From an uncultured Planctomycetales bacterium (GTDB taxonomy: Bacteria > Omnitrophota > Gorgyraeia > Aquiviventales > Aquiviventaceae): 64,000 nucleotides of DNA. Positions 4,900 through 62,878 of this stretch are shown piece by piece. Under the pieces are notes generated by a model that saw nothing but the letters and a program-made list of their open reading frames with translations, was not told the origin of the DNA and ran no database searches. The DNA lies in assembly GCA_964624155.1 (NCBI GenBank), contig CAZUWM010000002.1:5159-69158 (forward strand), given 5' to 3'. Position 1 is the stretch's first letter; each line of letters begins with the position of its first letter. The position numbers were made by a program, and so were the translations under genes.

Positions 4900-4909
4900 G
4901 TTTACGAGT

Positions 4910-4998
4910 CCATAGTCCGCAGTCGATAGTCCATAGTGAGAAATCAAAAAATGCTTCGAGGTTTGTCTATCGACTATGGACTATGGCCTATGGACTAA
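4910..4998. repeat. Inverted heptamer array, CCATAGT arm / ACTATGG arm (3 tandem copies)
   Basis: ccatagtccgcagtcgatagtccatagtg ... cgactatggactatggcctatggacta; between thpR start and pgpA stop. Confidence 0.8.
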
Positions 4999-8307: not shown

Positions 8308-10485
8308 CTATTCAGAATGGGCGACTTCGGGTCTGGAGAAGATCTCGCGAGGGCGACTGCCCTGGGCCGGTCCGACCAGACCTTCTTGTTCCATCTGATC
8401 AAGGATGCGCGCGGCTCGTCCATAACCCAGCCGTAAGCGGCGCTGGAGAAATGACGTGGACGCCTGGCCGGTCTCCAGGACCAGCCGCTTGGCCATATCA
8501 TACAACTCATCCTTCTCACCCATCAAGCCGAATTCCGCGGGCTGATCTTGTTTGACCAACAACTGTTCATCATAACTCGGAGCGCGTTGGGCTTTCAAGA
8601 AATTCACCAATCGCTCAATTTCTTCATCCGTCACATAGCAGCTCTGGGCGCGAATCGGTTTGGCCGTTCCCGGTCGCAAGAACATCAAATCTCCGCGACC
8701 CAGGAGTTTATCCGCCCCGTTCATGTCCAAGATCGTGCGCGAGTCCACCTTTGACGCCACCTGAAACGCGATGCGAGCCGGAAAGTTGGCTTTAATCACG
8801 CCCGTGATCACGTCAACCGAAGGACGCTGCGTGGCCAGGATGATATGCAGGCCGACCGCTCGAGAGAGCTGGGAGAGCCGCGTGATGGCCTCCTCCACAT
8901 CCTGCGAGGCCACCATCATCAGATCCGCCAATTCGTCGATCACGATGACCAAATATGGAAGACGCTCAAGGCTCGAGGCTCCAGGCTCGAGGTTCTGGTC
9001 TTGCCTTGAGCCTTCAGCTTTCAGCCTAGGGCATCTTTCATTGTAGGCATCGATATTCCTGACCCCAACTTTCGCTAAGACCTGATAGCGACGTTCCATT
9101 TCCGTCACGGCCCAGGCCAAGGCGGCTGCCGCTCGCTTCGCATCCGCGACCACAGGAGCGACCAGATGGGGGATGTCATTGAAGAGTATCAGTTCCACCT
9201 TTTTCGGATCGATCATGAGGAATTTCACGTCATCCGGACTGGCCTGATACAACATCCCGGTCAGCAAGCTGTTCAAGCACACGGTCTTGCCCGATCCGGT
9301 CGCTCCGGCGATCAAGAGATGGGGACACTCGCGCAGGTCCGCCACCAACGGGTGACCTGACACATCCATCCCAATGCCAAGCGCCAGCGGCGAGCGCAGC
9401 TGAGTGAACTCGCGGGAAGTCATCAGGTCTCGCACGTAGACGGTTGTCGCTCGATGGTTGGGCACATCCACCCCCACGAGTCCCTTGCCGGGGATGGGGG
9501 CGATGATATGGCAGCTCGCCGCCTTCAAGACGAGCGCCAAGTCATCAGCGAGCGAGACGATCTTGGTCAGTTTGACTCCGGGAGCGGGTTGGAGTTCATA
9601 CCGGGTCACCGTCGGTCCGCGATCGATGTTGAGCACGGTGGCCTCAATGCCGAATTCCCGCAGGGTCTCCTCCAGAATGCGCGCATTGGTCATTGGGTCT
9701 TCCCCGGGCTCCGCCTGCCGCTGGGCAAGCGGCGGAGGTTGCGTGAGAAGGTCTAACGAGGGCAATTGAAACCCCCCGCTCGTTTGCCGAGCGCGGGCGA
9801 GTTTGGTTGGGGAGAGAGGGGGCGGAATGGTTTTGGGGTTCTGGGTCACGATCGGGTTTCTGATCGATGGCCGTGCTGTTTCAGTGGATCGAACGGCGTG
9901 GTTGGCATCGGCGGATCGCCACGATGAACGTGGGGTCGTGGCCACGGATCGTCTCGTGAAACGCTCGCGGATGGCGTTCCACCAGGTCTGGAGCCCGCTC
10001 ACCCACCGACGAGGAAGAACCCTGGTGTCCACCATCAGCGTCCACGACAAGTAGCCCACACAGAGCGCCAGCAACGCGCTCCCGATGGAGCCTAAATAAT
10101 ACCGGCCGGCCCGAACACCCAGGTAGCCCACGACACCCCCGAGCGCCGTTTGTCGGGTTGGGTCCATCGTACTGAGGGCGATCAAGGTCGAAGCGCTCCC
10201 GAGCAGGAACAGACTCGCAAGGCCTGTGGTGGTCCATCGTCCGTGATCCAGGGTGTTGGTGCGCCACAAGCGGACGGACCAGACGCCCGCCAGGACCGGG
10301 ATGAGGAGCGACGCCCATCCGAATCCTCCCCGCCCGATCAACGCGACCCAAGAACCGACAACACCGCCGATGTTCCGAAGAGGTTGGTTGGGCTCAGAAC
10401 TCAGGAGAGACAAATCTGCGGGATGGTACGACGCGACAGCCAGCAGCACAAACACTCCCGCTGCGCTGATGAAAGCGCTCACCAC
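8308..10485 (-). CDS. ftsK: DNA translocase FtsK/SpoIIIE
   Basis: N-terminal 4-5 TM segments, linker, FtsK ATPase (GATGSGKT Walker A) and gamma winged-helix domain. Confidence 0.9.
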   Translation of the reverse strand: MVSAFISAAGVFVLLAVASYHPADLSLLSSEPNQPLRNIGGVVGSWVALIGRGGFGWASLLIPVLAGVWSVRLWRTNTLDHGRWTTTGLASLFLLGSASTLIALSTMDPTRQTALGGVVGYLGVRAGRYYLGSIGSALLALCVGYLSWTLMVDTRVLPRRWVSGLQTWWNAIRERFTRRSVATTPRSSWRSADANHAVRSTETARPSIRNPIVTQNPKTIPPPLSPTKLARARQTSGGFQLPSLDLLTQPPPLAQRQAEPGEDPMTNARILEETLREFGIEATVLNIDRGPTVTRYELQPAPGVKLTKIVSLADDLALVLKAASCHIIAPIPGKGLVGVDVPNHRATTVYVRDLMTSREFTQLRSPLALGIGMDVSGHPLVADLRECPHLLIAGATGSGKTVCLNSLLTGMLYQASPDDVKFLMIDPKKVELILFNDIPHLVAPVVADAKRAAAALAWAVTEMERRYQVLAKVGVRNIDAYNERCPRLKAEGSRQDQNLEPGASSLERLPYLVIVIDELADLMMVASQDVEEAITRLSQLSRAVGLHIILATQRPSVDVITGVIKANFPARIAFQVASKVDSRTILDMNGADKLLGRGDLMFLRPGTAKPIRAQSCYVTDEEIERLVNFLKAQRAPSYDEQLLVKQDQPAEFGLMGEKDELYDMAKRLVLETGQASTSFLQRRLRLGYGRAARILDQMEQEGLVGPAQGSRPREIFSRPEVAHSE

Positions 10486-20650: not shown

Positions 20651-21114
20651 GGCGTTCCATAAGTCTCGGCCTCACGTGATTTCACCGATTCGTCGAACGT
20701 GATCCGGAGGGTCACCCGGCGACCCTCCCGCTCGAGCACGACCTGATCCTCATGGATTTCCGCCACCCGGTAGCCCCCCACCATATCTCCCACCACGGTG
20801 TCTTGCTCATTCAAGAGGGCGATGGAACGACCGGCCGGATCCCACAAGATCCCCCCCAGCAATGGCAGCGAGGTGTCCAGGGGTCCTGAAAGCAGAAGGG
20901 TGTCGCCGCTCGCTGCAATGGCCCGTCCATCCCGAACGAGCGGCACAAACGGATCGCGTTTGCCCTTCGCATCGTACGTCTCCGCCTTCACAGATAGCAC
21001 AGCAGCACAGAGGACACAGATGAAAGCACACAACACCACAGAGCACACAGAGAACTTCTCCGTGTCATCTGTGGTGTAGCGCTTTTTCTCTGTGTGATCT
21101 GTGTTCTGTGACAT
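20647..21114 (-). CDS. pilP: Type IV pilus assembly protein PilP
   Basis: RDPF motif (KGKRDPFVPL), beta-rich C-domain; N-terminal ~40 aa are encoded by the CACAGAT repeat array, so true start is uncertain. Confidence 0.7.
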   Translation of the reverse strand: MSQNTDHTEKKRYTTDDTEKFSVCSVVLCAFICVLCAAVLSVKAETYDAKGKRDPFVPLVRDGRAIAASGDTLLLSGPLDTSLPLLGGILWDPAGRSIALLNEQDTVVGDMVGGYRVAEIHEDQVVLEREGRRVTLRITFDESVKSREAETYGTP

Positions 21115-21170
21115 CTGTGGTTATCTGTGTATCTGTGCCATCTGTGCAGCATCTGTGGCATCTGTGAGGG
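20988..21170. repeat. Large palindromic array: ~7 CACAGA(T/G) units on left arm, ~10 (A/T)TCTGTG units on right arm
   Basis: Spans pilO 3' end and pilP 5' end; translated into both proteins. Confidence 0.85.
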
Positions 21171-22306: not shown

Positions 22307-22307
22307 G

Positions 22308-23341: not shown

Positions 23342-23345
<4 letters not shown>
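22308..23345 (-). CDS. pilM: Type IV pilus assembly ATPase-like protein PilM (actin-like)
   Basis: FAVGLDVGSSSIKAIAL phosphate-1 motif; position upstream of pilN. Confidence 0.8.
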
Positions 23346-24033
<688 letters not shown>

Positions 24034-24049
<16 letters not shown>

Positions 24050-46389: not shown

Positions 46390-46390
46390 A

Positions 46391-50963: not shown

Positions 50964-51029
50964 CGTGATAAGAAATTGTGACGTATCGCCTTCTTTGCCT
51001 TCTCCATCTTCTTGCCCTCTGAAGCCTTC

Positions 51030-51839: not shown

Positions 51840-53384
51840 TTATTTCTTCTTCGATTTTTTGGAGGATTTCGCCGGCGCGGATTTCCCCTTGGCCGAATCC
51901 TCCGCGACACTCGGCGTCGTCGAAGAGGCGTCCAAGAGCCGTTGGACTTGAATGGCAAACGCCACGACCTCCGTCTTCGTCGTTGGATCGGTCATGACGT
52001 TCGTCGCCTGGGGCTTGACCGTCATCCATTCAGGTTCGGCTTTCAAGCGATCGATGAACTGCGTCACACCCTGAAACGATTGCGCGAACCCCTCGAGCGT
52101 GCCGCTGATGTGCGGAAGGCTTTTGGTCAATTCGAGCATGGTCAGCCAGAGACTGTCCGGCAACGTCTCGGTGATCTGGACGAACGAACGGGTCATCCGG
52201 TCGTGGGTGCGCGCGAGAGACTCCAATTGCATGAGTCGATACTCCAGGTGGGCCTGGTGTCTCCGGATCGTCCGGACCTCCGGTCGAAGGAGCTGATACG
52301 AGTGCTCCTCTTTACGATAGGCTTCCACCACGGCCTGGCGAGATCGCAAGGACGTCAAGATCCCCTGGGCGCTCCACCCTGCGGCCATGAGTGCCGCCAC
52401 CAATCCGATGAGCTGGGAACCGCGGCGCAGGCGAGCCACGCGACGGGCACGCAGAATCTGGTCCACCAGATTCAACGAAAGCCGCGCGGTCCCCGCGGCC
52501 TGTAAGGCCAGCCCGCAGGTGGCCACGAAATCCTCCGCCCCGACGTCCGCCGTGGGGCGAGCAATCGTCTCTGTGGAAAGCGAGTGGACGGGACACCCGA
52601 TCGCGCGTTGGAGCGACGCTCCAAACGAGGATCGGCTCTCCGTGCTGCCGACGAGCCAGATGGATGGCGAAGCAGACAACGTCACTGCGGAGGTCTCCAG
52701 ATGTTTCTGCAATCCTTCCCACGAGCTCTTCAGCCACGTCACCGTCTGATCCTGATCCGCTGTCGACGGAAGGAGGCTGGGAAAGACATAGAGGCCGTTC
52801 GAGGCAATGATGATCCACTCCAACACCCGCCCGTCGAGCCGCACGACCAGACCCGCTCCAACAGCCGTCGGGGCGGACTGCAGCCAGGCATTCGCCACGG
52901 CCACCGCATTCACCTGGACGCCGCTCACCGCAACGCCCGCTCGCTGGCAAGCCGTAAGTCGCTCCTGGAGCACGGAGTGTTTGACAGCCGCCACCACCGC
53001 GGCCCCACCCACGCTACCGGATGGAGACGCCGAGGATTTTGATTGTCCATTGAGCGAGAGCCATTGGTAGTGCCAGACCGTCTGCGCCGCGTCATAGGGC
53101 AGGTGTTGCTGGAGTTCGAATCCCACCGCCAAATTCGCCCGAGCGCGATGGACAACGAGCGGCTGCACCGTCGTGACAATGGCGGAGGTCGTCGGCAACC
53201 CCAGCACCACCGGGGATTTGATGGGTAGCGTCCTGCGGACGTATTGGATGGCGCGCAGCAAATCAGGCCCTGAGGTGCCTCCCCAGGGCGCATGGGTGGC
53301 GGCGAGAAGTCGTGGAGGTTTCGTGCGAGGATCAAGGAGGACGGCGCGGACCGCCGCCGTCCCCAACTCCAGACCAACACTCAT
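51840..53384 (-). CDS. GspL-like protein (PilM-type actin-like domain fused to PilN-like TM/periplasmic domain)
   Basis: Internal Met MSVGLELGTAAVRAVLL (actin-like phosphate-1), central TM, PilN-like C-terminus, Lys-rich tail. Confidence 0.6.
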   Translation of the reverse strand: MSVGLELGTAAVRAVLLDPRTKPPRLLAATHAPWGGTSGPDLLRAIQYVRRTLPIKSPVVLGLPTTSAIVTTVQPLVVHRARANLAVGFELQQHLPYDAAQTVWHYQWLSLNGQSKSSASPSGSVGGAAVVAAVKHSVLQERLTACQRAGVAVSGVQVNAVAVANAWLQSAPTAVGAGLVVRLDGRVLEWIIIASNGLYVFPSLLPSTADQDQTVTWLKSSWEGLQKHLETSAVTLSASPSIWLVGSTESRSSFGASLQRAIGCPVHSLSTETIARPTADVGAEDFVATCGLALQAAGTARLSLNLVDQILRARRVARLRRGSQLIGLVAALMAAGWSAQGILTSLRSRQAVVEAYRKEEHSYQLLRPEVRTIRRHQAHLEYRLMQLESLARTHDRMTRSFVQITETLPDSLWLTMLELTKSLPHISGTLEGFAQSFQGVTQFIDRLKAEPEWMTVKPQATNVMTDPTTKTEVVAFAIQVQRLLDASSTTPSVAEDSAKGKSAPAKSSKKSKKK

Positions 53385-53390
53385 GAGGAT

Positions 53391-53415
53391 GATTTCACTG
53401 TGTAATCTGTGTTCC
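53391..53415. repeat. ATCTGTG-type short cluster
   Basis: cactgtgtaatctgtgttcc; GspL-like start / Ig-like end. Confidence 0.6.
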
Positions 53416-54975
53416 TTATTCGATCTTCCACAACTTGATCGGCGGTCCGTAGGGCACGACGGTGCCAGGCGGCTGAATCCCGACAATCCAGGTACGCTCG
53501 GCCGGCGTGGGATCCTCTTCTTCGTCCGGCTGGATGCCGTCCTGGCCGTTGGACTCTTTCGCGGCCTTCACACGGAAGTAGTGGTTGCCGTAGGAGAGTC
53601 CCTCTTTCTTCGCCACCGTCTCAGAGTTCCAGGCCGACCAGCCGTCGTGGTCAAAGGCGTACGAGAACACACACCCGCCTTCCGGACAGGTAAAGCTGAA
53701 CGGCGCGCTCGTCGATGGGGTGAAGCCGGCCGGCCCGCTGAGGATGATGGTATCCGGTGCTAGCAAGTGCAGCTCAATGTCCGCCGCCACCGGCTCGGAG
53801 ATATTGCCGACTTTATCGATGAATTTGACGTAGACTTTCTGGGTTCCGTTGACTGAGTTCAACTTCCACAGCTCTCGCACCGGGTTAAAGGATTCTTGGA
53901 CGAAGCCCGTCACCGCATCGTTGCTGATGAGCATCCCGGTGACCCCGGAGATCGCATCCGAGCTGGAGAGGTTCAGCGTCACATAGACACTCGTGGTCAT
54001 CGCGGCCCCCGCGTTGATCAGCACCGAGCCGGTTGGTGGGGTCACATCCGTGGTGAAGCTCCACACCAAGGCGGTTTGCTTGTTGCCGACGCGGTCAGAG
54101 GCTTCGACCTGAATGGCGTTCGCGCCCTCTTTCACCAAGCCGGTACTGGTCGCGGTCACGACTCCGGTCGTCTCATCGACGCTGACCGACGACTGGAGGC
54201 CGTTGATCAACAACTTGATCTGCGAAGCCCCCACCCCGCTGTGGGGATCCGTCACGTTGACGGAAATGCCGGGTTTGAGGGTGTTCAACAGACTCCCCGC
54301 CGCCGGGGTGTAGGTCCCCAGTGCCGGCGCGGTCGTATCAAGCCACAATGCAAAGGACAAGGGTGTCCCGGCATTGCCGGCCGAATCCACGGCTTTGACC
54401 GAAAAGAGGTGCTGGCCGTCGGCCAGCCGTTTCAGGGGGTCTTGCGCCACGTCCCAGGAGGTGCCTTTCGTGTCAATGATCGTGTCGGGATCTCCATTCA
54501 GCGCATAGCTGTAGCCCTCCACCAACTCAGGCGCCTGCGCTTGCCAGATGAAGATCGGATCGGCATCGCGCTGCCAGGTCTTCTGGCTGATCTCGGTTCC
54601 GAGGGGCGCGGCCTTCGCATATAAGAGCGTCAAGGCCAGATTGCCTTTGACGACGGAGATGGCCGGACCCAGGGCCGCGCCAACGAATCCTGTGAAGACT
54701 TGAACCGTCTTACTGGACAACTTGTCTGCGCTGAAGGCCGCACCCATCGTGGTGGTTTGTCGGTGTCCCGATGAGGAACTGGTGACGACCCCGCCCAATT
54801 GCGTGGTCTCGCCGATCTCCAGCGTTTTGGTCTCGCTCTTGGCGCGCGCCGCCTCCACCAAACCAGTCGACAGTCCATAGTCCATAGTCCATAGCAAAAG
54901 AGCAACGGCGAGAGAGCGCCCAACGAACAACGGCGTGACGGTGGACGGTGGACGGGAGACGGTGGACGGTATCAT
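53416..54975 (-). CDS. Secreted protein with tandem bacterial Ig-like (Big) domains
   Basis: Signal peptide; repeated Ig-like segments (DTTAPALGTYTPAAG..., TDVTPPTGSV...); no pilin N-terminus; signal peptide partly encoded by CCATAGT repeats. Confidence 0.55.
   Translation of the reverse strand: MIPSTVSRPPSTVTPLFVGRSLAVALLLWTMDYGLSTGLVEAARAKSETKTLEIGETTQLGGVVTSSSSGHRQTTTMGAAFSADKLSSKTVQVFTGFVGAALGPAISVVKGNLALTLLYAKAAPLGTEISQKTWQRDADPIFIWQAQAPELVEGYSYALNGDPDTIIDTKGTSWDVAQDPLKRLADGQHLFSVKAVDSAGNAGTPLSFALWLDTTAPALGTYTPAAGSLLNTLKPGISVNVTDPHSGVGASQIKLLINGLQSSVSVDETTGVVTATSTGLVKEGANAIQVEASDRVGNKQTALVWSFTTDVTPPTGSVLINAGAAMTTSVYVTLNLSSSDAISGVTGMLISNDAVTGFVQESFNPVRELWKLNSVNGTQKVYVKFIDKVGNISEPVAADIELHLLAPDTIILSGPAGFTPSTSAPFSFTCPEGGCVFSYAFDHDGWSAWNSETVAKKEGLSYGNHYFRVKAAKESNGQDGIQPDEEEDPTPAERTWIVGIQPPGTVVPYGPPIKLWKIE
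54872..54894. repeat. Tandem CCATAGT x3
   Basis: gtccatagtccatagtccatag; encodes part of the Ig-like protein signal peptide (LWTMDYGL). Confidence 0.8.
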
Positions 54976-57900
54976 CGTTGCAGGACGGCTTGGATCCGTT
55001 TTGAGGCGACAGGCCGATTGCGCTCAAAGGCCTCGCCCATGCTCATCACTTGAAACACTTGTGAGCGGACCGTCAACCAGTTCGCCAACTGCCGAAACCG
55101 TGCCAGCCGATCATCCTCAGTCTCTCCCAACGTCGAGCCGATCAACACATCCCCAATCCCACGGGCTTTGCTGTCTTGATCGCCATAGGGCCGTCCCGCC
55201 ACGATCCGATCGACGATGGCCTCCGTCATCCCCGACAAGCTGAGCAGGACATCGCGTGACGCCGTATTGACGTTGATGCGGCCCACGAGGATGAGCTGGG
55301 GATCACACATCGCATGGAGGAAATGGCACACGTGGCTTTCCGATTCACACCGGATCTCAAGATGCAAGGTCTTCGGATCAGTGACCCCCATGCCCACCGT
55401 CACCTCACCCACAATCAGACGCCCTTGGGCATCGGTGATCCGAGGAGGCGTCCACTCGCCGTCCTCGCTCCATCGCACCGCCATCGTCTCCCCGCTCCAT
55501 CCATACAGACTCAGGCGATACGTCCCGTCGGGGATGTCCGTCCATTCCCAGACGCCAACGGCCTGACCCCCTGCCCCGCTGGTCTCATAGCCCGTCAGCG
55601 TCTCATGCCATCGATCCCCTCCGCCCAGGAGCGTGGCGGCTTGGCTTTCCAGTCGCAAGCCATCAACCGTCAGTTGATCGACAATCACCGCCAGGTCGTG
55701 GCTCTCCACCGGCTTCCACGCGATGCTGCTGGCCAACCCCGCCAACTCTCCCAATGAGCCCAGCGGTCGATTCAAAATGGTGATTTCCGTCGAGGGATCG
55801 TGCCGAATTTGCTCTTCTCCCGCCACCTCTAAGAGGCCTTCGTTATCGTTCGCCTCGCCGGGGGTGTATTGCTTCAGCGATGGATACCAATCCTCATCAA
55901 GCCCATCTTTGTCATCGTCGAGCACCACGGTCGGATCGCCCTTTTCAAGGCTCTGAAACCCCACGGAGGTGGGGAGTGGAATGCGGTACTCAATCTCATC
56001 CACCACCCACCCCTGGCGGTCCTTCAGCGCCAGCCGGGCGGAGGAAGCATCGGGCGGGAGGGTGCTGATGAGCCAATCCATATCGGGACTCAAGTCGCCC
56101 TCTTCTTCAAGGAATTCAAGCTGCACCACATTGGCATCATCCCGCATCTCCCACGCCGCCAGCGCCGTGATGTCGTTCTCCAGGCCGGGCTGCGTATCAT
56201 CCACGTCCACCGCCGCCACCAACACGCCGTGAGCAGGAATCTTGGCCCCCTCCGGCAGCGACACGGTCCGCATGGCCGCGATCCCTTCGATGGTCCAGCG
56301 GCTCACATCGACCTCCTGGTCGCTGAGGTTGATGAGCTCCACATACTCGCCGTCAGGCTCAAGGGACAACGACACCTTCTCAAAATAGTATGTCACCTCG
56401 CCGGCGGTTTTGCCAAGAGAGACGCGAAATTTTGTTTTCTTCGGCTGCTGCTCACCCGCCTGGGGGACTTCCACCACGATCAACGGCTCGTCATGCCGAG
56501 CCCCGTGGAAGGAGACGGTCGAGCTGCTGTTGATTTTTCCCACAGCGCTCCCAGATTGCCCATAGACCCGAAGGTGATACTTCCCCGGAGGGACGTAGTT
56601 GGATTGTCCCGCGGTCGTCGTCCACTCCCATTCAGCCGATCCCACCCCGCTGTTCGTGCAGGTGCTGGAGGCACATGACCAAGCGGAATTGCCTTTCGAA
56701 AAGGTGGCCGCACTCACCGTCAACTCGACCACCGGCGAGACCATCAACTCATTGAATCGCACCGCCTCGATGCCCCGCACGACCGTCCCTCCGCTCGTCG
56801 GCGGTTCGGTGGGCACGAGCTCCACGCCGCGAAACGCACACGAGCTGTCTTCGGCCTCGCGACAGGTCAGTTCCACCGTCATCGTCTCGCTGGTCAGTTT
56901 CAGCGTCCCAAACGTCTCATCGGAATCGAGGGAGGGTTTCGACTCCCCGTTGATCGTGACATCGCCCACTTTCGTTCCGGAAAGGCCCCGCACGATGACC
57001 TGGAAGGTGCCAAGAGGGACGGAGAGCGCCCAGGCAAGCGCAGACTCTGACGGGCTGCTGAGGTAATGACCCTCTGGTTGCGCCTGCCACGTCCAACTGC
57101 CCTGGTCGCCTTGGTTGGCCATCTCGTAGGGCGTGCTGTGCCGCACCACCTTGGAGAGGGCGAGGTCCGTATCGATGTAATCCGCCATATTGGCCGCGAG
57201 CTGCCAGGGATCGGCCCCGCCTTTTTCCAGCAAGGCGTTGAGGATTTCTTCGGCGGTGGCGGTATTGACGTTCAACCGCGGTTGGCCGGTGATGCTGAGA
57301 TTCGTATCCCAACTATACACCGTGGCGACGGTTGACAGCTTGGTGAAGGTCGCCTCATCCAACTCGCTGAGCGACAGCACGTCTTCCAGGGTTTCGAAGC
57401 GTCGATCATCCCCTCGCAAGGCCAGCGGCTGATACTCGTCCGGCTCATCCACCGTCCCATCACCGTCATCATCAATGTTGCCACGGCCTGGCTGACCATC
57501 CTCGCCGAAGCGGTAGCTCTCGACCGAGGTCGCGAGGGAGCCGGGCACGCCGATCTTCGAAAACAGCGAGGTGAGGCTCATGCCATCGACCCCATGAGCC
57601 GCTGGATCGGCCAGGGCGACGTTGAGATTCACCTTGCCCGCTTCATCCCTGATCAAGACGCCATAGCGTCCCCCCACCTCGCCGTGGCTGTTCGCCACCA
57701 GCCACCACCGGGCGTCAACGGTGTCATCCTCATCCACATCGACATCGGAGCCGGTCATCGCATCGACCCACGCCTCCGTCAGGTCGTCATAGCGCGATCC
57801 GAGCTGATCCTCATCCAACACGACCCACCCATGGGCGACACCGGCTTCCGCGATATACCGGGCTTGCGTTGAGGCGACGAATTGTTTGGCGGCCTGGGTT

Positions 57901-58085
57901 TCGAGAAACATCGAGAACACGAACGAGACCCCCATGATCGCCACGACGGTGAGCACGCTGACGACGATGAGCAGCGCAATCCCCCGCTCTCCAATGCGGA
58001 ATGGGGAATGGGGAATGGGGAATCTAAGCCTTCCATTCCAAATTCCAAATTCCGAATTCCGAATTCGATCAGCTGGTGGGGACAT
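54972..58085 (-). CDS. Giant GspK/PilX-like minor pseudopilin (~1040 aa)
   Basis: N-terminus ...ERG|IALLIVVSVLTVVAI (GspK-type, no Glu5); two ComEA/HhH-like LNVNTAT / INVNTAS motifs typical of T2SSK; ~700 aa of extra beta-rich sequence. Confidence 0.6.
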   Translation of the reverse strand: MSPPADRIRNSEFGIWNGRLRFPIPHSPFRIGERGIALLIVVSVLTVVAIMGVSFVFSMFLETQAAKQFVASTQARYIAEAGVAHGWVVLDEDQLGSRYDDLTEAWVDAMTGSDVDVDEDDTVDARWWLVANSHGEVGGRYGVLIRDEAGKVNLNVALADPAAHGVDGMSLTSLFSKIGVPGSLATSVESYRFGEDGQPGRGNIDDDGDGTVDEPDEYQPLALRGDDRRFETLEDVLSLSELDEATFTKLSTVATVYSWDTNLSITGQPRLNVNTATAEEILNALLEKGGADPWQLAANMADYIDTDLALSKVVRHSTPYEMANQGDQGSWTWQAQPEGHYLSSPSESALAWALSVPLGTFQVIVRGLSGTKVGDVTINGESKPSLDSDETFGTLKLTSETMTVELTCREAEDSSCAFRGVELVPTEPPTSGGTVVRGIEAVRFNELMVSPVVELTVSAATFSKGNSAWSCASSTCTNSGVGSAEWEWTTTAGQSNYVPPGKYHLRVYGQSGSAVGKINSSSTVSFHGARHDEPLIVVEVPQAGEQQPKKTKFRVSLGKTAGEVTYYFEKVSLSLEPDGEYVELINLSDQEVDVSRWTIEGIAAMRTVSLPEGAKIPAHGVLVAAVDVDDTQPGLENDITALAAWEMRDDANVVQLEFLEEEGDLSPDMDWLISTLPPDASSARLALKDRQGWVVDEIEYRIPLPTSVGFQSLEKGDPTVVLDDDKDGLDEDWYPSLKQYTPGEANDNEGLLEVAGEEQIRHDPSTEITILNRPLGSLGELAGLASSIAWKPVESHDLAVIVDQLTVDGLRLESQAATLLGGGDRWHETLTGYETSGAGGQAVGVWEWTDIPDGTYRLSLYGWSGETMAVRWSEDGEWTPPRITDAQGRLIVGEVTVGMGVTDPKTLHLEIRCESESHVCHFLHAMCDPQLILVGRINVNTASRDVLLSLSGMTEAIVDRIVAGRPYGDQDSKARGIGDVLIGSTLGETEDDRLARFRQLANWLTVRSQVFQVMSMGEAFERNRPVASKRIQAVLQR
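57996..58067. repeat. GGAATGG x4 followed by (A/G)AATTCC x4 (inverted arms)
   Basis: 5' end of giant GspK-like gene / 3' end of GspJ-like gene; translated as NSEFGIWNG...FPIPHSPF. Confidence 0.8.
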
Positions 58086-58674
58086 ACACGACGGTCTCAA
58101 ACTGTTCCGGTTTCTTCGCGCCGATCGTCACGGTGATCCGAATCGCTTTGGGGACTCGGGCTTCCTGCTCGCCATCCTCCCGCCCATCCCATGCCGTCAG
58201 CCACTGCGTGCCATCGAAATACGACAGCTCCAGTCCAACGACGTCGGTCCCGCACACCTCATCCGTGCCGGTGGCTTCGTAATCGCCGTCCGCAGGCTCG
58301 TCATCATGGCACATGAACTCGTGCTCGCTGTTGAGCCAATACCCCCGCTCCACAAGGCCGGAGCGCCCGGCCAGGACCCCGACGAAAAACACCTCGTCTT
58401 GCGTGCTGTCCTCTTTGAATCGGGTGGCCTCGGCGTCGTTGCCCACAAACGGATACCGCTCCTGGGTCAGACACGAACCGAGTTCCCTCGCGAAGAGATC
58501 AAACAGGAGACGAGCTTGTTGATAGCGCTCCGTCCGCAACTGCCCGCTGCGCCACGTCTGCGTGATCCCGCGGAACATCAGCATCGTCGAGCCCGTGATG
58601 GTGATGAGAATCGCCATCGCGATCATCAGTTCCACCAACGTCAGCCCCTGGGGTCGGGGCTCTACATTTGACAT
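58069..58674 (-). CDS. GspJ/PilW-like minor pseudopilin
   Basis: MSNVEPRPQG|LTLVELMIAMAIL prepilin motif; ~200 aa. Confidence 0.6.
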   Translation of the reverse strand: MSNVEPRPQGLTLVELMIAMAILITITGSTMLMFRGITQTWRSGQLRTERYQQARLLFDLFARELGSCLTQERYPFVGNDAEATRFKEDSTQDEVFFVGVLAGRSGLVERGYWLNSEHEFMCHDDEPADGDYEATGTDEVCGTDVVGLELSYFDGTQWLTAWDGREDGEQEARVPKAIRITVTIGAKKPEQFETVVYVPTS

Positions 58675-58741
58675 TGCAGGGCGCGAGGAGTCTCGGTCCG
58701 ACCCCATGGTCTGTTCTTGACGATTTTTTACCCTGAACCCG

Positions 58742-59185
58742 TTAACTTTTAGGCTTGCGGAGGTAGGTCACCAGATCAAGGGTTCGACCGCGGCCCTCCT
58801 GCGCCCACCCTACCGAGACGGTCACCCGCTTGAGACTGGTCGGATCCACCACGTCCTCGACCTCCGGTTGATCGATCGTCAGGACGATGGTGTAGTCTTC
58901 TTCAGTCGTCGTGGAACTCCCCACGGCGAGGTCGTCCCAGGACGTGAGTTTGGTTGAGGCCATGGTGCGTTCGGCCAACAGAGTGGCTCGACTGACCTGC
59001 TCCGCGCGACGAGAAGCCCGCAGGCCCATCGGGAAGACCCGCATGGATCCCACGAGTCCGACGGAAAGGATCCCAATGGCGATGACGACTTCCACTAACG
59101 AGAAGGCGGAAGGCGGAAGGCGGAAGGCGGAAGTAGTTTTCCACTTCCCACTTCCCACTTCCCACTTCCCACTTCGACAAGTCAT
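58742..59185 (-). CDS. GspI/PilV-like minor pseudopilin
   Basis: ...PPSA|FSLVEVVIAIGILSVGL prepilin-like N-terminus; 27-aa leader encoded by GGAAGGC/CACTTCC heptamer repeats; ATGA overlap with gspF-like gene supports the start. Confidence 0.55.
   Translation of the reverse strand: MTCRSGKWEVGSGKWKTTSAFRLPPSAFSLVEVVIAIGILSVGLVGSMRVFPMGLRASRRAEQVSRATLLAERTMASTKLTSWDDLAVGSSTTTEEDYTIVLTIDQPEVEDVVDPTSLKRVTVSVGWAQEGRGRTLDLVTYLRKPKS
59089..59176. repeat. GGCGGAA/GGAAGGC x4 followed by CACTTCC x5 (inverted arms)
   Basis: Encodes leader peptide of GspI-like pseudopilin. Confidence 0.85.
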
Positions 59186-60249
59186 CCGAGGATCTTGGTG
59201 AGTGAGAGCAACGGCAGGAACATGGCAATCACAATGAAGCCCACAATCCCACCCACGCCGACAATCAACAAAGGCTCAAGCAGCTGCGTCAACCCCCCCA
59301 GCATCACCTCGACCTCTTCCTCGTAGTTATCCGCCAACTGGACGAGCATCCGATCGAGCTGGCCGGTCTCCTCGCCGAGGGCCACCATCCGGGAGACGAG
59401 CGGCGGAAACGCCCCGGAGACTTCGATGGGACGGGCCAGGGATTCACCGGCGCGCAGACTCCGCTCCACGTCCTGCAAGGCATCATCCAGGACCGCGTTG
59501 GAGACGGTCATGCGGACCGTTTCCAAGGCGTTCAGGATCGGCACCCCGCTGGAGAGCAACGTTCCAAACGTCCGGGCGAAGCGCGCGATGAGGAGCTTGT
59601 GAATGAGGGTCCCGAAGAGCGGCAGTCCCAACAGTAATCGGTCGACCTGCCGTTTTCCGCCGGGGGTCTTCATCAGCGCTTGGAGCAGCGCCACGAATCC
59701 TGCGGCGGCGATCGCCACCAACCACCACCATTGACGCACGATATTGCACAGGATGATCAAAATCCGCGTGGGCAGGGGCAAGGCGGAGCCCAGCTCGGTG
59801 AACATCCCCATGAAGGTGGGGACCACGAAGGCCATCAGGATGATCAAGATGCTCACGGCGGCGAACATCACAAAGGCCGGATACATCAAGGCGCCGCGCA
59901 CGCGATCGCGCAGCCGTTGTTGTTTTTCCATCACCTCGGCGAGCCGCTTGAGGATTTCTTCAAGGAGCCCGCCGACTTCTCCGGCCCGCACCATATTGAT
60001 GTAAAACGGAGGGAAACACCGTGGATGCCGCGAGAACGCTTCGGAGAGCTTGACGCCCGCTTCCACGTCACTGGCGACCAGGGTAAAGACTTGGCGCAAG
60101 GACCCCGGTTCCAGTTGGTCGCTGACGGTACGGAGGGATCGCAGCAGCGGCATGCCGGCTTTCACGAGGGTCGCCAACTGCCGGGTGCACACGACCAGTT
60201 GAGCGCGCGAGGCGCCGCCAAACCGGAATCGCCCCCGCGAAGCCATCAC
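59182..60249 (-). CDS. GspF/PilC-family inner-membrane platform protein
   Basis: T2SF repeats, 3 TM; 355 aa. Confidence 0.8.
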   Translation of the reverse strand: MMASRGRFRFGGASRAQLVVCTRQLATLVKAGMPLLRSLRTVSDQLEPGSLRQVFTLVASDVEAGVKLSEAFSRHPRCFPPFYINMVRAGEVGGLLEEILKRLAEVMEKQQRLRDRVRGALMYPAFVMFAAVSILIILMAFVVPTFMGMFTELGSALPLPTRILIILCNIVRQWWWLVAIAAAGFVALLQALMKTPGGKRQVDRLLLGLPLFGTLIHKLLIARFARTFGTLLSSGVPILNALETVRMTVSNAVLDDALQDVERSLRAGESLARPIEVSGAFPPLVSRMVALGEETGQLDRMLVQLADNYEEEVEVMLGGLTQLLEPLLIVGVGGIVGFIVIAMFLPLLSLTKILG

Positions 60250-61400
60250 GGGCCGCGTTGAACGGCAAGATCACCAACGTGGAGGGCATCGGCATTCTCA
60301 GGAGCAATCAAATCGCACGCCGCAAGTTGTGGACGCACGCGGACCGCAACCGCTCGTCCGATCATCTCAACCCCGCGCACCAGGTCGAACGTCATCCCGA
60401 CGCGGACCCCCTCCTCGGCACCCTGGTTGATGATGAGAAAACGATGGGGGGGATTGACCTCAAGCACGTGGGCACGGATGGCTGCCATGGTGGGGGGCCG
60501 TTCCTTGCGGACGATGATCGGAGGCAGTTCGACCGTCTGCGAACCGACGCCTCCCCCTTGCTGTGAGCGGCGTGCCTCCTCCACCAACGTGTTGGTGTGG
60601 GGGCGCGGCTCCGTGGGTCGGGGAGCGGATGATGCGTTGGCCGGCTCCTGGGGCCTCGCCGGCTTGACGACGACCCCTGACGGCGAGAGGATCGGCAGGG
60701 GAGTGTGTTGAGGAGCGTTCGAGGAATCCAGAGGCCGTTCAGGTGTCTGAAGGACCGGAGCGTGGCCTTGGAAATTCACGGCATCCGATGAGAGCGAGGC
60801 GTCCGAAGGAGCGCTGGTCACCGTCTGCGGGATGATCGGCCACACGGCCTCCACGCGAGGCGGGAGGATCCCACCTGTCGTTCCGGTTGAAACGGCTGGG
60901 CCGCCTTGGGTCAGTTGACGTTCGAGCGCCGCCACCCGTTCACGCATCTGCCGGTAATCGCGATCGGCCAGGGTCAGGCGATTCCGAAGGCGTGCCGCCA
61001 CGTGTTCCAGGTCTCTTTTCTCTTCTTCCAGACGACGAGCCTGGTCTTTGGCGTCGTTGCGCTCCCGTGCGAGTCGAGCGACTTCAATTTCAAGACGCGC
61101 CTTCTCGTTTTGAAGCGCGTCATGGCGCACTTGGACGTCACGAAGGGCCGCGAGTTCCTGGGTCGCCGTGGTGAGCTGCCCTCGCACGCTCTCAAGACGC
61201 CGCTCCAATTCGCTGCGCTCAGTCTGCAGTTGATCGAATTGTTGTTGAAGCGCTTGGTTCTGTTCTTTCAGCGTGCTGATGGCTTGTTCTTTCGCCGCAA
61301 CGTCTTGCTTCAAGCGGGTCAGTTGCAGCCACGGCCCAATGGCGAGCCCCGCCATCCCGAGCACACCCACCACTCCAAAGGCGATCAACGGCCGATTCAT
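60246..61400 (-). CDS. Membrane-anchored coiled-coil protein with Pro/Ser-rich linker and conserved C-terminal beta-rich domain
   Basis: TM, ~150 aa coiled coil, C-terminal FLIINQGAEEGVRVGMTFDLVRG... homologous to C-terminus of 41439..42221. Confidence 0.5.
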   Translation of the reverse strand: MNRPLIAFGVVGVLGMAGLAIGPWLQLTRLKQDVAAKEQAISTLKEQNQALQQQFDQLQTERSELERRLESVRGQLTTATQELAALRDVQVRHDALQNEKARLEIEVARLARERNDAKDQARRLEEEKRDLEHVAARLRNRLTLADRDYRQMRERVAALERQLTQGGPAVSTGTTGGILPPRVEAVWPIIPQTVTSAPSDASLSSDAVNFQGHAPVLQTPERPLDSSNAPQHTPLPILSPSGVVVKPARPQEPANASSAPRPTEPRPHTNTLVEEARRSQQGGGVGSQTVELPPIIVRKERPPTMAAIRAHVLEVNPPHRFLIINQGAEEGVRVGMTFDLVRGVEMIGRAVAVRVRPQLAACDLIAPENADALHVGDLAVQRGP

Positions 61401-62636
61401 CTAGGCTTGGATGAACACCTCACGAATCACCCAGCAGGCGGCTCCTAACGCGACCGCCTGATCTCCTAATTTCGCCGGCAACACATCCACGAGACTCGCG
61501 TGCTCTTCGTAGGCGTACCGTTTCACGGCCCGCCACACCGGCTCCAGCAGGAATGAATCAGCCTGTTCAATCCCTCCCCCGATCACGACGACCTCAGGAT
61601 TCAGGAGGTTAACGATGGTGGCGATGCGAACGCCCAATTGCAAGGCGGAATGCTCGATGAGCTCTTTCGCGAGTTGATCACCCGCGTGGGCGGCTTTGAT
61701 GACCACGTCCATCGTCAACTCATCGAGGTGGCCATTGACCAATTCCTTCATCGTGGAGGCGTTCCCTTCCCCGATGAGTTTCTTCGCCTGGTTGGCCAAG
61801 CCGAGATCCCAGACATTGGAGACGAGGAATCCGGGGCCTTTGATCCACGTGATGTAATCATCGTTGTTGGGCACCGAGATGCCGACTTCCCCGGCGCTGC
61901 CGCATGAGCCCCAATAGACATGGCCGTTCAAGATCAGACTAGCCCCGACATCCGAGTAGAGGTAGACCATGTTCTCCACGCGACGATCCAGGCCGAGTCG
62001 ATACTCTCCGTAACCCGCGAAGCTCGCGTCGTTGCCGATGAAGACGGGCATCTTGAACTCGCTTTCCCACCGACTTTGGAGGGCCAAGTAACTCGTTCGG
62101 CTGCCGCGATGCGAGGAGGTATCGCGGACGGTTCCTGCCCGCTCATCCAAGATCCCACCGACCCCAATGGCGATCCCCTGGATTTTTTTCGGATCCACGG
62201 GACTGGTGGTGAGCACGTCACGAATGAGCTCGACCGCTTGCGCCAGCGCCTCATCCATCGTCGTGATGGCGCGGGATCGAGTCCGTTGATGCACGATGCT
62301 CCCGCGCAGATCCGTGATGAGGCCTCGCATCGTGACATGGGGGACGTTCATCGGTCCGACATCCACCCCGATCGCAAAGCCGGATTTCGCGTGGAGCTCG
62401 ACCAGCACGGGTTTCCGACCGCCGGTGGACACATCAAATCCTCGCTCCACCACCAGCCCGTGCTTGATGAAATCCGCCACGTAGTTGGAGACGGTCACGA
62501 TGTTGAAACCGGTGCCTTGCGACAACTCGGTCCGCGTCATCGGTCCCCGTTGGCGGATGAGCTCAAGCAAGCTCAAGCTCTTTTGTTCCCGTTCCGTGAG
62601 CCGATGATCTTCGAGCAGGGTCCGTCGTCGAATCAT
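61401..62636 (-). CDS. ROK-family transcriptional regulator (NagC/Mlc-like; N-terminal wHTH + sugar-kinase fold)
   Basis: HTH LLELIRQRGPMTRTELSQGTGFNIVTVSNYV; ROK glycine-rich regions; zinc motif partly degenerate (WGSCGSAGE). Confidence 0.75.
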   Translation of the reverse strand: MIRRRTLLEDHRLTEREQKSLSLLELIRQRGPMTRTELSQGTGFNIVTVSNYVADFIKHGLVVERGFDVSTGGRKPVLVELHAKSGFAIGVDVGPMNVPHVTMRGLITDLRGSIVHQRTRSRAITTMDEALAQAVELIRDVLTTSPVDPKKIQGIAIGVGGILDERAGTVRDTSSHRGSRTSYLALQSRWESEFKMPVFIGNDASFAGYGEYRLGLDRRVENMVYLYSDVGASLILNGHVYWGSCGSAGEVGISVPNNDDYITWIKGPGFLVSNVWDLGLANQAKKLIGEGNASTMKELVNGHLDELTMDVVIKAAHAGDQLAKELIEHSALQLGVRIATIVNLLNPEVVVIGGGIEQADSFLLEPVWRAVKRYAYEEHASLVDVLPAKLGDQAVALGAACWVIREVFIQA

Positions 62637-62783: not shown

Positions 62784-62878
62784 TCACAGATGGCACAGAG
62801 ACTCCACAGATGGCACAGATACATTCCCTCTGTGGTTCTCTGTGTTCTCTGTGGTGTGTATCTGTGCTATCTGTGGTT
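62784..62878. repeat. Palindromic array: CACAGAT x4 / TCTGTG x5
   Basis: Between glycoside hydrolase stop and ROK regulator start. Confidence 0.85.

What the first reader, a model, noticed from the sequence alone, without database searches (positions are those of the whole stretch)
57996..59185. Repeat arrays are translated as leader and N-terminal peptides of pseudopilins (possible slipped-strand phase variation)
The GspI-like gene's 27-aa leader (MTCRSGKWEVGSGKWKTTSAFRLPPSA|FSLVEVV...) is encoded almost entirely by (CACTTCC)5 + (GGAAGGC)4 units. Its ATG overlaps the upstream gene stop in an ATGA coupling, which supports this start. The GspK-like N-terminus (..NSEFGIWNG..FPIPHSPF..) is encoded by GGAATGG/AATTCC units. 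The minor pilin at 23342..24049 has a ~40-aa leader built from CTTCCGA/GGAAG units (..KSEIGSRKSE..TRKSEVGS..). Because the units are 7 nt long, gaining or losing one copy shifts the reading frame between the start codon and the prepilin domain. This is the classic architecture of slipped-strand ON/OFF switching of surface structures, here placed on pilus-tip/minor pseudopilin genes.
Basis: partly seen in the sequence, partly recalled or inferred. Interest (0 to 1): 0.7.

Follow-up and report, generated by a model that had tools for sequence, protein, structure and literature searches.

The report
Hairpin repeat elements inside pseudopilin leaders
The 7-base repeats are real and are very probably translated, but they are copies of a genome-wide hairpin repeat that sits harmlessly in the cut-off leader of pilin-like genes, and the data show no sign of an on/off switch.

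Summary
On the minus strand, the leaders of the GspI-like gene, the GspK-like gene and a third pilin gene are encoded by 7-nt tandem arrays.

- Each locus is an inverted pair of arrays that folds into a long hairpin.
- About 13 such pairs, with 7- to 9-nt units, lie at gene junctions across the 64-kb window. Some flank or enter housekeeping genes (FtsK, RimO).
- Relatives from Candidatus Omnitrophota carry different arrays, non-repeat hairpins or nothing at the same junctions.

Translation through the elements is well supported. The start codon that overlaps the preceding gene stays in frame in 11 of 13 insert-bearing alleles at F-I. At J-K it is in frame in 11 of 11, and at the third pilin in 5 of 5. 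Insert lengths range from 44 to 161 nt. dN/dS for I, J and K is 0.12-0.17.

Slipped-strand ON/OFF switching is not supported. No copy-number difference appears at these junctions in any of six sets of independent assemblies, including the window's own strain. No frame-broken allele was found. Strains at 98-99% identity differ by whole-element presence, absence or type, and every allele still has an open in-frame start.

Best reading: fast-turnover hairpin elements, similar to REP or MITE repeats, tolerated in cleavable leaders.

The parts
59182..60249 (-). GspF/PilC-like platform protein. Its TGA overlaps the ATG of the next gene (ATGA).
   Evidence: Pfam T2SSF 1.7e-67 and TIGR02120 3.3e-115. 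Sequence read.
58742..59185 (-). GspI/PilV-like minor pseudopilin. It has a 27-aa leader, predicted cleavage at A|F (Ala codon 59107-59105, Phe codon 59104-59102) and a conserved mature part.
   Evidence: N_methyl motif and weak TIGR02598, PilV and XpsI matches. 15 homologs with an invariant mature N-terminus and hypervariable leaders. dN/dS 0.17 against L001.
59141..59175 (-). 5' arm of the F-I element, (GGAAGTG)x5 in mRNA sense. It encodes GKWEVGSGKW.
   Evidence: TRF 100% matches. Hairpin -42.4 kcal/mol, z=-4.0.
59102..59133 (-). 3' arm of the F-I element, (CTTCCGC)x4.6 in mRNA sense. It encodes SAFRLPPSA, and its last partial unit supplies the Phe+1 codon.
   Evidence: A related unit YTCCGCM occupies the same place in L008, L011 and L019.
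58069..58707 (-). GspJ-like pseudopilin. Its leader has no array but holds a non-array inverted repeat (58642-58713). Its 3' end contains the ATG of K.
   Evidence: N_methyl plus weak T2SSJ/gspJ matches. Inverted repeat I25.
54972..58085 (-). GspK-like large minor pseudopilin (about 1037 aa from ATG 58085). Its 35-aa leader ends at ERG|IALL.
   Evidence: NF037980 E=3e-23 starting at residue E38 of the TTG ORF. The ATG 16 nt inside J is conserved and in frame in 11 of 11 insert-bearing alleles.
58035..58066 (-). 5' arm of the J-K element, (GGAATTY)x4.6 in mRNA sense. It starts 3 nt after the J stop.
57993..58023 (-). 3' arm of the J-K element, (CCCCATT)x4.4 in mRNA sense.
   Evidence: Identical in Logan contigs L033/L034.
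23342..24049 (-). Third pilin-like gene (PilW-like by source names). It has a 39-aa leader ending RRG|FTITELL, and its ATG overlaps the preceding pilin-like gene by 17 nt.
23941..24029 (-). Array pair in the third pilin leader: (GAAGTCG) units, a spacer, more (GAAGTCG) units, then (CTTCCCC)x2.7.
   Evidence: Identical in four independent Logan runs, L027-L030.
54872..54970 (-). Array pair immediately after the K stop: (ACCGTCC)x5 and (CTATGGA)x3. It is untranslated.
   Evidence: L001 has other units at the same place.
4907..4997 (-). Purely intergenic array pair of the same class (GGACTAT units, which contain stop codons) between pgpA and thpR.
   Evidence: (z=-6.3).
8964..9027 (-). Array pair of the same class, in frame inside FtsK.
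   Evidence: The Pfam FtsK_SpoIIIE stretch 351-557 spans it.
21025..21166 (-). CACAGAT/CTCTGTG arrays spanning the PilO 3' end and the signal-peptide coding region of the GspC/PilP-like gene.

Best explanation
The repeats are copies of a genome-wide, fast-turnover class of hairpin elements in this Candidatus Omnitrophota genome. Each element is two inverted tandem arrays of a 7- to 9-nt unit, 3-5 units per arm.

The elements occupy the few bases after the stop codon of one cistron. The pseudopilin genes start at codons that overlap the preceding gene: ATGA for I, and an ATG 16-17 nt inside the upstream gene for K and the third pilin. An element at such a junction therefore lies inside the downstream ORF, between the start codon and the prepilin cleavage site.

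It is then translated as an extended leader with no sequence constraint. The prepilin peptidase removes that leader at [G/A]|F or G|I, so the mature pseudopilin is unchanged. Selection removes inserts that break the frame or carry sense-strand stops. What remains are stop-free units such as GGAAGTG, CTTCCGC and CATTCCN, in total lengths that keep the frame.

Shown: the architecture, the genome-wide distribution, turnover and strain-level presence/absence, frame conservation, and purifying selection on the mature parts.

Inferred: translation from the overlapping ATG, removal of the leader by a prepilin peptidase (none lies in the window), and spread by mobility or recombination.
For: 1. About 13 array pairs lie in 64 kb, nearly all at gene junctions, and they fold as hairpins.
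2. F-I-J-K synteny is conserved in all lineages examined, yet each junction carries different units, a non-repeat hairpin, or nothing.
3. Empty sites show the compact ancestral state: L026 MKRSG|FSLVE, L031/L032 MSAA|FSLVE and MSPRADS|ERG, and L011 MCPRVSS|NKG.
4. Strains at 98-99% nucleotide identity are empty (L031/L032), carry (AATTCGG)4/(CATTCCG)4 (L035), or carry (GTCACAC)4/(CTGTGAC)4 (L036/L037) at F-I. The L035 F-I unit family reappears at J-K in L036.
5. The overlapping ATG is in frame and open in 11 of 13 insert-bearing F-I alleles (p about 2e-4 against 1/3). It is in frame in 11 of 11 J-K alleles (p about 6e-6; 10 of 11 are open). It is in frame in 5 of 5 third-pilin alleles. Insert lengths run from 44 to 161 nt.
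6. dN/dS is 0.12-0.17 for I, J and K.
7. The same unit family occurs at several junctions within one genome.
8. Other cleavable or tolerant regions also host arrays in frame: the signal peptide of the GspC/PilP-like protein, a loop of FtsK, and the RimO C-terminus.
Against: - No transposase, terminal inverted repeat or target-site duplication was found, so mobility is inferred only from polymorphism. Filled sites replace the original leader codons rather than simply interrupting them.
- No prepilin peptidase gene lies in the window, and cleavage of 27- to 47-aa leaders is assumed.
- Alleles are not all phylogenetically independent.
- A function for the hairpin itself is not excluded, because a hairpin of some kind occupies nearly every one of these junctions.
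- Assemblies are consensus sequences, so minority length variants would be invisible.
Confidence: 0.68

Rival explanations
1. Slipped-strand phase variation. Gain or loss of one 7-nt unit switches the pseudopilin genes ON or OFF as a bet-hedging device.
For: - Perfect non-triplet repeats lie between the start codon and the mature domain.
- Units within an array are homogenised, which implies slippage or conversion on evolutionary time.
- One array elsewhere differs by 2- and 4-nt indels and 13 substitutions between strains at 99.2% identity.
Against: - No unit-number difference appears at any F-I, I-J, J-K or third-pilin array in six sets of independent assemblies, including the window's own strain.
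- The exact P0007 protein, including its leader, occurs on 24 contigs that were read.
- No allele lacks an open in-frame start.
- The same elements sit at non-coding and housekeeping junctions, and occur with 8- and 9-nt units.
- Arms have only 3-5 units, against 13-24 in the hmw1A heptamer tract.
- Variation between strains is by whole element, and every allele keeps an open in-frame start.
Confidence: 0.1
2. The hairpin is a selected cis-regulatory RNA or DNA structure, for example one that enforces translational coupling, sets minor-pseudopilin stoichiometry, or marks an mRNA processing or stability site. On this view its translation is a side effect. This is compatible with the best explanation.
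For: - Nearly every F-I, I-J and J-K junction in 13 lineages folds into a strong hairpin whatever its sequence: mean -38 kcal/mol over 35 junctions.
- Both arms changed together between L008 and L019, whose flanks are 95% identical.
- The hairpin begins 3-9 nt after the start or stop codon.
Against: - Empty sites exist in otherwise near-identical strains, so the hairpin is dispensable.
- The sense strand shows no folding advantage over the antisense strand. Antisense is more stable in 24 of 35 junctions, so no G-U signature of RNA-level selection appears.
- No Rfam family matches, and there is no terminator-like T-run.
Confidence: 0.2
3. The arrays are untranslated intercistronic spacers, and translation of I, K and the third pilin starts downstream at a non-canonical codon.
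For: In some relatives the usable start lies inside the element. Examples are a GTG in arm 2 in L025, an ATG in the loop in L007 and at L035 J-K, and a GTG in arm 1 in L001. Gene callers sometimes pick downstream starts.
Against: The window has no in-frame ATG, GTG or TTG between the arrays and the cleavage motif. The frame of the conserved overlapping ATG is preserved far beyond chance. Any start that keeps the F+1/E+5 motif must lie within or upstream of the arrays.
Confidence: 0.05

Closest known systems
REP/BIME/REPIN and bacterial MITE-type intergenic palindromic repeats (PMC3333891; PMC10969869)
   Same: Short hairpin-forming repeats dispersed at gene junctions. Families are genome-specific, and strains differ in presence or absence.
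   Different: Each arm here is itself a tandem array of a 7- to 9-nt unit, and the unit differs from locus to locus. No RAYT or IS transposase, terminal inverted repeat or target-site duplication was seen. Many copies lie inside 5' coding regions.
Rickettsia palindromic elements (RPE) inserted in frame in protein-coding genes (reviewed in PMC10969869)
   Same: A palindromic repeat element sits inside an ORF, in frame, is translated, and is tolerated by the host protein.
   Different: RPEs are about 150 bp and encode a conserved peptide inside mature proteins. These elements are 60-120 nt, encode no conserved peptide, and sit mostly in N-terminal segments that are cleaved off (prepilin leaders, a Sec-type signal peptide).
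Simple-sequence-repeat contingency loci: Neisseria opa CTCTT repeats in the signal-peptide coding region (own knowledge), and Haemophilus influenzae hmw1A (ATCTTTC)n (PMC8262952; PMC12721329)
   Same: Non-triplet tandem repeats lie at the 5' end of genes for surface structures, and a one-unit change would alter expression.
   Different: Known loci are single direct tracts, often long (13-24 heptamers at hmw1A), and polymorphic in length between isolates. Here the arrays are short inverted pairs, invariant between independent assemblies, and present genome-wide, including at housekeeping junctions.
Heptamer direct repeats in intergenic regions: Beggiatoaceae and cyanobacterial TAACTGA repeats (PMC4679880), and cyanobacterial STRR (own knowledge)
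   Same: Tandem 7-nt units are abundant at gene junctions, often just upstream of start codons.
   Different: Those families use one or a few fixed unit sequences and are described as direct repeats only. Here many unit sequences occur and the arrays come as inverted, hairpin-forming pairs.
Long leader peptides of type IVb pilins (own knowledge)
   Same: Class III signal peptides with leaders of about 15-30 aa are still processed by prepilin peptidase.
   Different: Those leaders are conserved within their family. Here leader length and sequence differ even between strains at 98-99% identity, because the leader is made of a repeat element.

Membership tests
Slipped-strand (SSR) phase-variable contingency locus | A tandem repeat tract, with a unit length not divisible by 3, lies between the start codon and the functional part of the ORF | tested here: met
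   7-nt units with 100% matches lie between the ATG and the prepilin motif.
Slipped-strand (SSR) phase-variable contingency locus | Tract length is polymorphic among isolates or samples of one strain or species | tested here: not met
   Copy numbers at these junctions are identical in L002-L005, L006/L016, L008/L014/L018, L011/L012 and L022-L024. For the window's own strain they are identical in L027-L030 and L033/L034. Only consensus assemblies were compared, not reads.
Slipped-strand (SSR) phase-variable contingency locus | Frame-shifted (OFF) alleles occur among genomes | tested here: not met
   Every junction allele in all lineages has an open in-frame start.
Slipped-strand (SSR) phase-variable contingency locus | Repeats are confined to a small set of contingency genes | tested here: not met
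   About 13 array loci lie in 64 kb. They include intergenic sites and the FtsK, RimO, thpR/pgpA and LacI-type regulator junctions.
REP/REPIN/MITE-like dispersed palindromic element | Hairpin-forming inverted repeat | tested here: met
   Fold z-scores run from -2 to -6.3 for four of the six elements folded. The third-pilin and K-3' elements were not distinguishable from shuffles. 35 junction elements have a mean MFE of -38 kcal/mol.
REP/REPIN/MITE-like dispersed palindromic element | Multiple dispersed copies of one sequence family per genome | tested here: met
   In the window, CACAGAT-type arrays occur at 5-6 loci, GGAAK-type at 4 and GGACTAT at 2. In relatives, L001 has CTCAATCA at 3 loci, L005 has CTCCTGT at 2 and L013 has GCTCCAAG at 2.
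REP/REPIN/MITE-like dispersed palindromic element | Presence/absence polymorphism between close strains | tested here: met
   L031/L032 are empty while L035 and L036/L037 are filled, at 98-99% flank identity.
REP/REPIN/MITE-like dispersed palindromic element | An associated transposase (RAYT or IS), terminal inverted repeats, or target-site duplication | tested here: inconclusive
   No transposase was found among the 40 window ORFs scanned against Pfam. No duplication is visible at filled versus empty sites, and the leader codons are replaced. The whole genome was not available.
RPE-like in-frame palindromic insertion | The element lies inside the ORF, in frame, and the host protein is retained under selection | tested here: met
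   Frame statistics and dN/dS of 0.12-0.17.
RPE-like in-frame palindromic insertion | The element encodes a conserved peptide | tested here: not met
   Leader peptides differ completely between alleles.
Type IV pilin-like (class III signal peptide) proteins | [G/A]|[F/L/M]xxxE followed by a hydrophobic helix | tested here: met
   I has SA|FSLVEVVIAIGIL, J has QG|LTLVELMIAMAIL and the third pilin has RG|FTITELLMAAAIF. PF07963/TIGR02532 matches lie at or near threshold.
Type IV pilin-like (class III signal peptide) proteins | A cognate prepilin peptidase, and actual cleavage of the leader | not testable with these tools
   No Peptidase_A24 gene was found among the window ORFs scanned. Cleavage needs an experiment.
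T2SS minor pseudopilins GspI/GspJ/GspK | A match to the family models above the curated cut-offs | tested here: not met
   GspK NF037980 scores 82.8 bits against a cut-off of 130. gspJ TIGR01711 scores 24.8 against 64.85. XpsI scores 23.4 against 150. The genes are I/J/K-like in order and architecture, not equivalogs.
TAACTGA/STRR-type heptamer direct repeats | One fixed heptamer unit used genome-wide, as direct repeats | tested here: not met
   Many different units occur, and the arrays come in inverted pairs. Compare PMC4679880.

The most novel reading that the evidence does not exclude
Inverted tandem-heptamer (7- to 9-nt) hairpin elements may be an undescribed, actively turning-over repeat class of Omnitrophota. 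They colonise intercistronic junctions and survive inside genes mainly where the encoded peptide is later removed or is unconstrained: prepilin leaders, a Sec-type signal peptide, and surface loops. On this reading the targeting peptides of pilus and secretion proteins are repeatedly rebuilt from repeat DNA, and leader alleles differ between strains at 98-99% identity. A further step, which the data neither require nor exclude, is that the hairpin or rare unit slippage tunes minor-pseudopilin expression.
Probability: 0.35. Interest if true: 0.65.

Novelty: new variant of a known kind. Interest (0 to 1): 0.5.

Why it matters
For annotation. In Omnitrophota, and probably in other candidate phyla, gene callers disagree on the starts of these pilin genes. 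The calls were 189 aa against 235 aa and 124 aa against 147 aa for the same DNA or for near-identical genes. Assemblies also break at these elements.

For biology. This is a clean natural test of how free a class III signal-peptide leader is. Leaders of 4 to about 55 aa of unrelated sequence precede an invariant mature N-terminus. It also extends the Rickettsia RPE idea, selfish palindromes living in frame inside genes, to cleavable targeting peptides in a different phylum.

For the original claim. Non-triplet repeats at the 5' end of a surface gene do not by themselves indicate a contingency locus. Genome-wide context and strain comparison decide.

Tried and rejected
- Rfam at gathering thresholds over the whole window found only RNase P RNA and two tRNAs, and nothing at the arrays.
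- The promoter/terminator consensus scan of 54500-60500 found no sites at the arrays and no T-runs, so these are not classical intrinsic terminators.
- Folding sense against antisense RNA for 35 junction elements, to look for a G-U signature of RNA-level selection, showed no sense advantage. Antisense was slightly more stable (p=0.05).
- Target-site duplications and conserved element ends were sought by comparing empty and filled sites. None was seen. The leader codons are replaced, and the first mature codons carry synonymous changes, which may point to recombination tracts.
- Literature searches for a prior description in Omnitrophota found none in the held library. That does not prove none exists.
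- The pseudogene reading was rejected on dN/dS of 0.12-0.17 and intact ORFs in all lineages.
- A specific link between GGAAK-type units and pilins was considered. It is more simply explained by the need for units free of stop codons in all three sense frames, and relatives use many other units in the same slots.
- The genome-contig scan found only one relative, L001. The window's own contig is in NCBI (P0001, P0059 and P0068, on a 73.5-kb contig) but is not a GTDB species representative.
Full report
**1. Observation**

The window is 60% G+C and almost all genes are on the minus strand. The finding covers an operon read right to left. Its genes are GspF/PilC-like (60249..59182), GspI/PilV-like (59185..58742), GspJ-like (58707..58069) and a 1037-aa GspK-like protein (58085..54972).

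- (CCACTTC)x5.0 at 59141-59175 and (GAAGGCG)x4.6 at 59102-59133, both at 100% matches
- (ATTCCAA)x4.6 at 58035-58066 and (AATGGGG)x4.4 at 57993-58023
- (CTTCCGA)x9.6 at 23964-24029 and (GGAAGGG)x2.7 at 23941-23959

A GGAAK-spaced pattern occurs 17 times against 0.09 expected. The ATG of I overlaps the TGA of GspF (ATGA). No in-frame ATG, GTG or TTG lies between the arrays and the prepilin motif.

**2.

At each locus the two arrays are inverted partners. In mRNA sense, (GGAAGTG)5 is followed by (CTTCCGC)4.6. They fold into 5-bp helices separated by 2x2 internal loops, at -42.4 kcal/mol and z=-4.0.

The same architecture occurs at about 10 further places in the 64 kb, with 7-nt units or 8- to 9-nt CACAGATN units:
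- 4907-4997, between pgpA and thpR. It is untranslated and its units contain stop codons.
- 6033-6065, which encodes the last 13 aa of RimO.
- 7395-7442, where the rimO ATG lies in the last unit.
- 8964-9027, in frame inside the FtsK ATPase domain.
- 21025-21166, at the PilO end and the GspC/PilP-like start.
- 38812-38851, 46388-46494, 50400-50439, 54872-54970 (just after the K stop) and 62785-62875.

The window holds six proteins with a class III signal motif, plus K. Arrays sit in three of these seven, and J has a non-array inverted repeat in its leader. The repeats are therefore a genome-wide junction feature, not a property of pilin genes.

**3. Relatives**

A genome scan found one relative, a groundwater Candidatus Omnitrophota MAG (L001, K 87% identical). 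A metagenome scan and exact-protein look-ups added about 13 further lineages. All keep the F-I-J-K order.

At each junction the relatives carry something different:
- L001 has 8-nt (AGTGATTA)/(CTCAATCA) arrays at F-I and I-J, and a non-repeat hairpin at J-K.
- L022-L024 are the closest relatives (F about 99%, I, J and K 91-94%). They have (GACGTGC)/(CACGTCT)-type arrays at F-I, (GCGGAGT)/(CATTCCG) at I-J, and a 52-nt non-array insert at J-K.
- L005 has (CCTCAGA)/(TGAAGTC) and (GAGACCK)/(GTCTCCT) arrays.

Empty sites exist and show the compact ancestral arrangement:
- L026: ggATGA-AGCGGAGCGGG|TTC, giving MKRSG|FSLVE
- L031 and L032: MSAA|FSLVE and MSPRADS|ERG
- L011: MCPRVSS|NKGIALL

Homologs of I and of the third pilin show the same split. 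Some have short classical leaders (MKRRG|, MKPTKG|). Others have long array-encoded leaders in front of an invariant mature N-terminus.

**4. Are the arrays translated?**

The start codons are conserved because they lie inside or across the end of the preceding gene. They are ATGA at F-I, and an ATG 16 nt before the end of J (or of the upstream pilin) at J-K and the third pilin. If the inserts were untranslated, their lengths would be random modulo 3.

They are not random:
- At F-I the overlapping ATG is in frame and open in 11 of 13 insert-bearing alleles. The gaps are 44, 74, 77, 77, 77, 83, 83, 89 and 161 nt, plus the L035 and L036 inserts. The exceptions are L001 and L007, which have an in-frame GTG or ATG inside the element. 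The binomial p is about 2e-4 against 1/3.
- At J-K the frame is kept in 11 of 11 alleles. The gaps are 52, 58, 76, 79, 82, 88, 100, 115 and 124 nt, plus L035 and L036, giving p of about 6e-6. Ten of the eleven are open. L035 has a TAA but also an ATG in the loop.
- At the third pilin the frame is kept in 5 of 5 alleles.

The alleles are not all phylogenetically independent, but their insert lengths differ.

dN/dS for I, J and K is 0.12-0.17, so the genes are under purifying selection. The GspK family profile starts at ERG, just after the array-encoded part.

I conclude that the arrays are translated as leader.

**5. Is it a slipped-strand switch?**

At the consensus level that is what the data show. 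The following sets of independent assemblies were compared:
- L002-L005 are 100% identical, and the exact P0007 protein, leader included, was read on 24 contigs.
- L006 against L016, at 99.6% identity.
- L008 against L014 and L018, at 99.2-99.99% identity.
- L011 against L012.
- L022, L023 and L024.
- The window's own strain. The third-pilin arrays are identical in four separate sequencing runs (L027-L030). The complete J-K pair and the 3' arm of the F-I pair are identical in L033 and L034.

No junction allele in any lineage lacks an open in-frame start.

What does vary between close strains is the whole element. In Hainich groundwater assemblies at 98-99% nucleotide identity, the F-I site is empty in L031 and L032. 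It holds (AATTCGG)4/(CATTCCG)4 in L035 and (GTCACAC)4/(CTGTGAC)4 in L036 and L037. The L035 F-I unit family turns up at J-K in L036. All of these alleles keep a usable frame.

Arms have only 3-5 units. The known phase-variable heptamer tract at hmw1A was studied at 13-24 units.

The arrays are mutable on evolutionary time. Units are homogenised within arrays: YTCCGCM variants occur at F-I in the window, L008, L011 and L019, three of them with the same 77-nt length. One array elsewhere differs by small indels and 13 substitutions between strains at 99.2% identity. Occasional slippage surely happens, but the evidence points to purging of frame-breaking variants rather than use of them.

Read-level heterogeneity could not be examined.

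**6. Mechanism proposed**

Hairpin elements built of inverted short-unit arrays populate the first bases after stop codons. Where the next gene starts before that stop, the element is inside the ORF. For class III signal peptides the region between the start codon and the [G/A]|F site has almost no sequence constraint and is removed by the prepilin peptidase. In-frame, stop-free elements are therefore tolerated.

The requirement for units without stops in all three sense frames explains why GGAAG, CTTCC and CATTCC-type units are seen in leaders. TAGTCCA or TGA-containing units are seen only between genes.

A parallel case supports the idea. The GspC/PilP-like protein at 20647-21114 has a signal peptide whose hydrophobic core, FSVCSVVLCAFICVLCAAVLSVKA|ETYD, is encoded by CTCTGTG-type arrays. 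Most homologs have ordinary signal peptides, and three others are also array-encoded.

Whether the hairpin itself does anything is open. Possible roles are translational coupling, mRNA processing or a DNA-level function. Nearly all junctions fold strongly, and both arms co-vary between L008 and L019. Against a required role, empty sites are viable, there is no sense-strand folding advantage, and there is no terminator signature.

**7. Comparison and novelty**

The elements work like REP, REPIN or MITE-type palindromic repeats. In their in-frame residence inside genes they resemble Rickettsia palindromic elements (PMC3333891; PMC10969869).

They differ in four ways:
- Each arm is a tandem array.
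- Units vary from locus to locus.
- No transposase, terminal repeat or target duplication was found.
- They persist preferentially in cleavable N-terminal peptides.

They share the 7-nt period and junction location with the TAACTGA and STRR repeats (PMC4679880), but not the fixed unit or the direct-only arrangement. I found no description of them in the held literature on Omnitrophota.

**8. Verdict**

Translation of the arrays is supported. Phase variation is not supported. The elements are a new variant of a known kind, of moderate interest.

Noticed in passing
window 8964-9027: An inverted array pair, (GAGCCTN) and (TGAAGGC) units, lies in frame inside FtsK. It encodes roughly residues 486-507, within the single Pfam FtsK_SpoIIIE stretch 351-557.
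   Followed up: partly
window 20647-21166: CACAGAT/CTCTGTG arrays encode the C-terminal 14 aa of PilO. They also encode the hydrophobic core of the signal peptide of the next gene (GspC/PilP-like), FSVCSVVLCAFICVLCAAVLSVKA|ETYD. Most homologs have ordinary signal peptides. P0069, P0070 and P0072 are also array-encoded.
   Followed up: partly
window 6033-6065 and 7395-7442: A single-arm (CACTTCC/GACTTCC) array encodes the last 13 aa of RimO, and the pgsA ATG overlaps the rimO stop. The rimO ATG itself lies in the last unit of a CACAGAT-type array.
   Followed up: no
window 58727-58740; also just after the J stop in L001 (about 6914-6927) and in L022: The motif GGGTTCARGGTAAA occurs directly after stop codons at different junctions in different genomes (1 match in the window against 0.01 expected). 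It may be another small junction element or a ribosome-binding region.
   Followed up: partly
window 54872-54970; L001 10029-10112: An array pair lies right after the K stop. Its two unit types, ACCGTCC and CTATGGA, are poorly complementary and its fold is not better than shuffles. L001 has other units, CGTATCT and TTCTGCC, at the same place.
   Followed up: no
L008 about 7040-7130 against L014: In strains at 99.2% identity, one array pair downstream of the operon differs by 2-nt and 4-nt indels and 13 clustered substitutions. The pilin-leader arrays in the same strains are unchanged.
   Followed up: partly
L033/L034 contig ends; L037 about 2160-2260: Short-read contigs end inside the arrays, and one scaffold has a run of N at the J-K junction. 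These elements fragment assemblies. They also cause gene callers to choose different starts (189 aa against 235 aa for identical DNA).
   Followed up: yes
L003 248-353 against L002: Assemblies that are otherwise 100% identical differ by roughly 106-128 nt upstream of GspF, in the coiled-coil protein gene. This looks like a repeat-length difference.
   Followed up: no
window 13039-13497 and 14631-14875: There is an RNase P RNA (class A) and two tRNA genes. A 27-nt inverted repeat at 93% complementarity (14714-14797) lies between the tRNAs.
   Followed up: no
window 19178-29543 and 46512-62636: Two separate T4P/T2SS-like clusters are present. The first has GspE, GspF, four pilin-like genes, PilM, PilN, PilO, a GspC-like gene and a secretin. 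The second has a ROK gene, a coiled-coil gene, GspF, I, J, K, a PilN-like gene and two secretins. No prepilin peptidase gene was found among the ORFs scanned.
   Followed up: partly
window 59182-60249: The GspF ORF aligns from position 56 of the 401-position GspF model. Either the N-terminus is short or the true start lies upstream, overlapping the coiled-coil gene.
   Followed up: no
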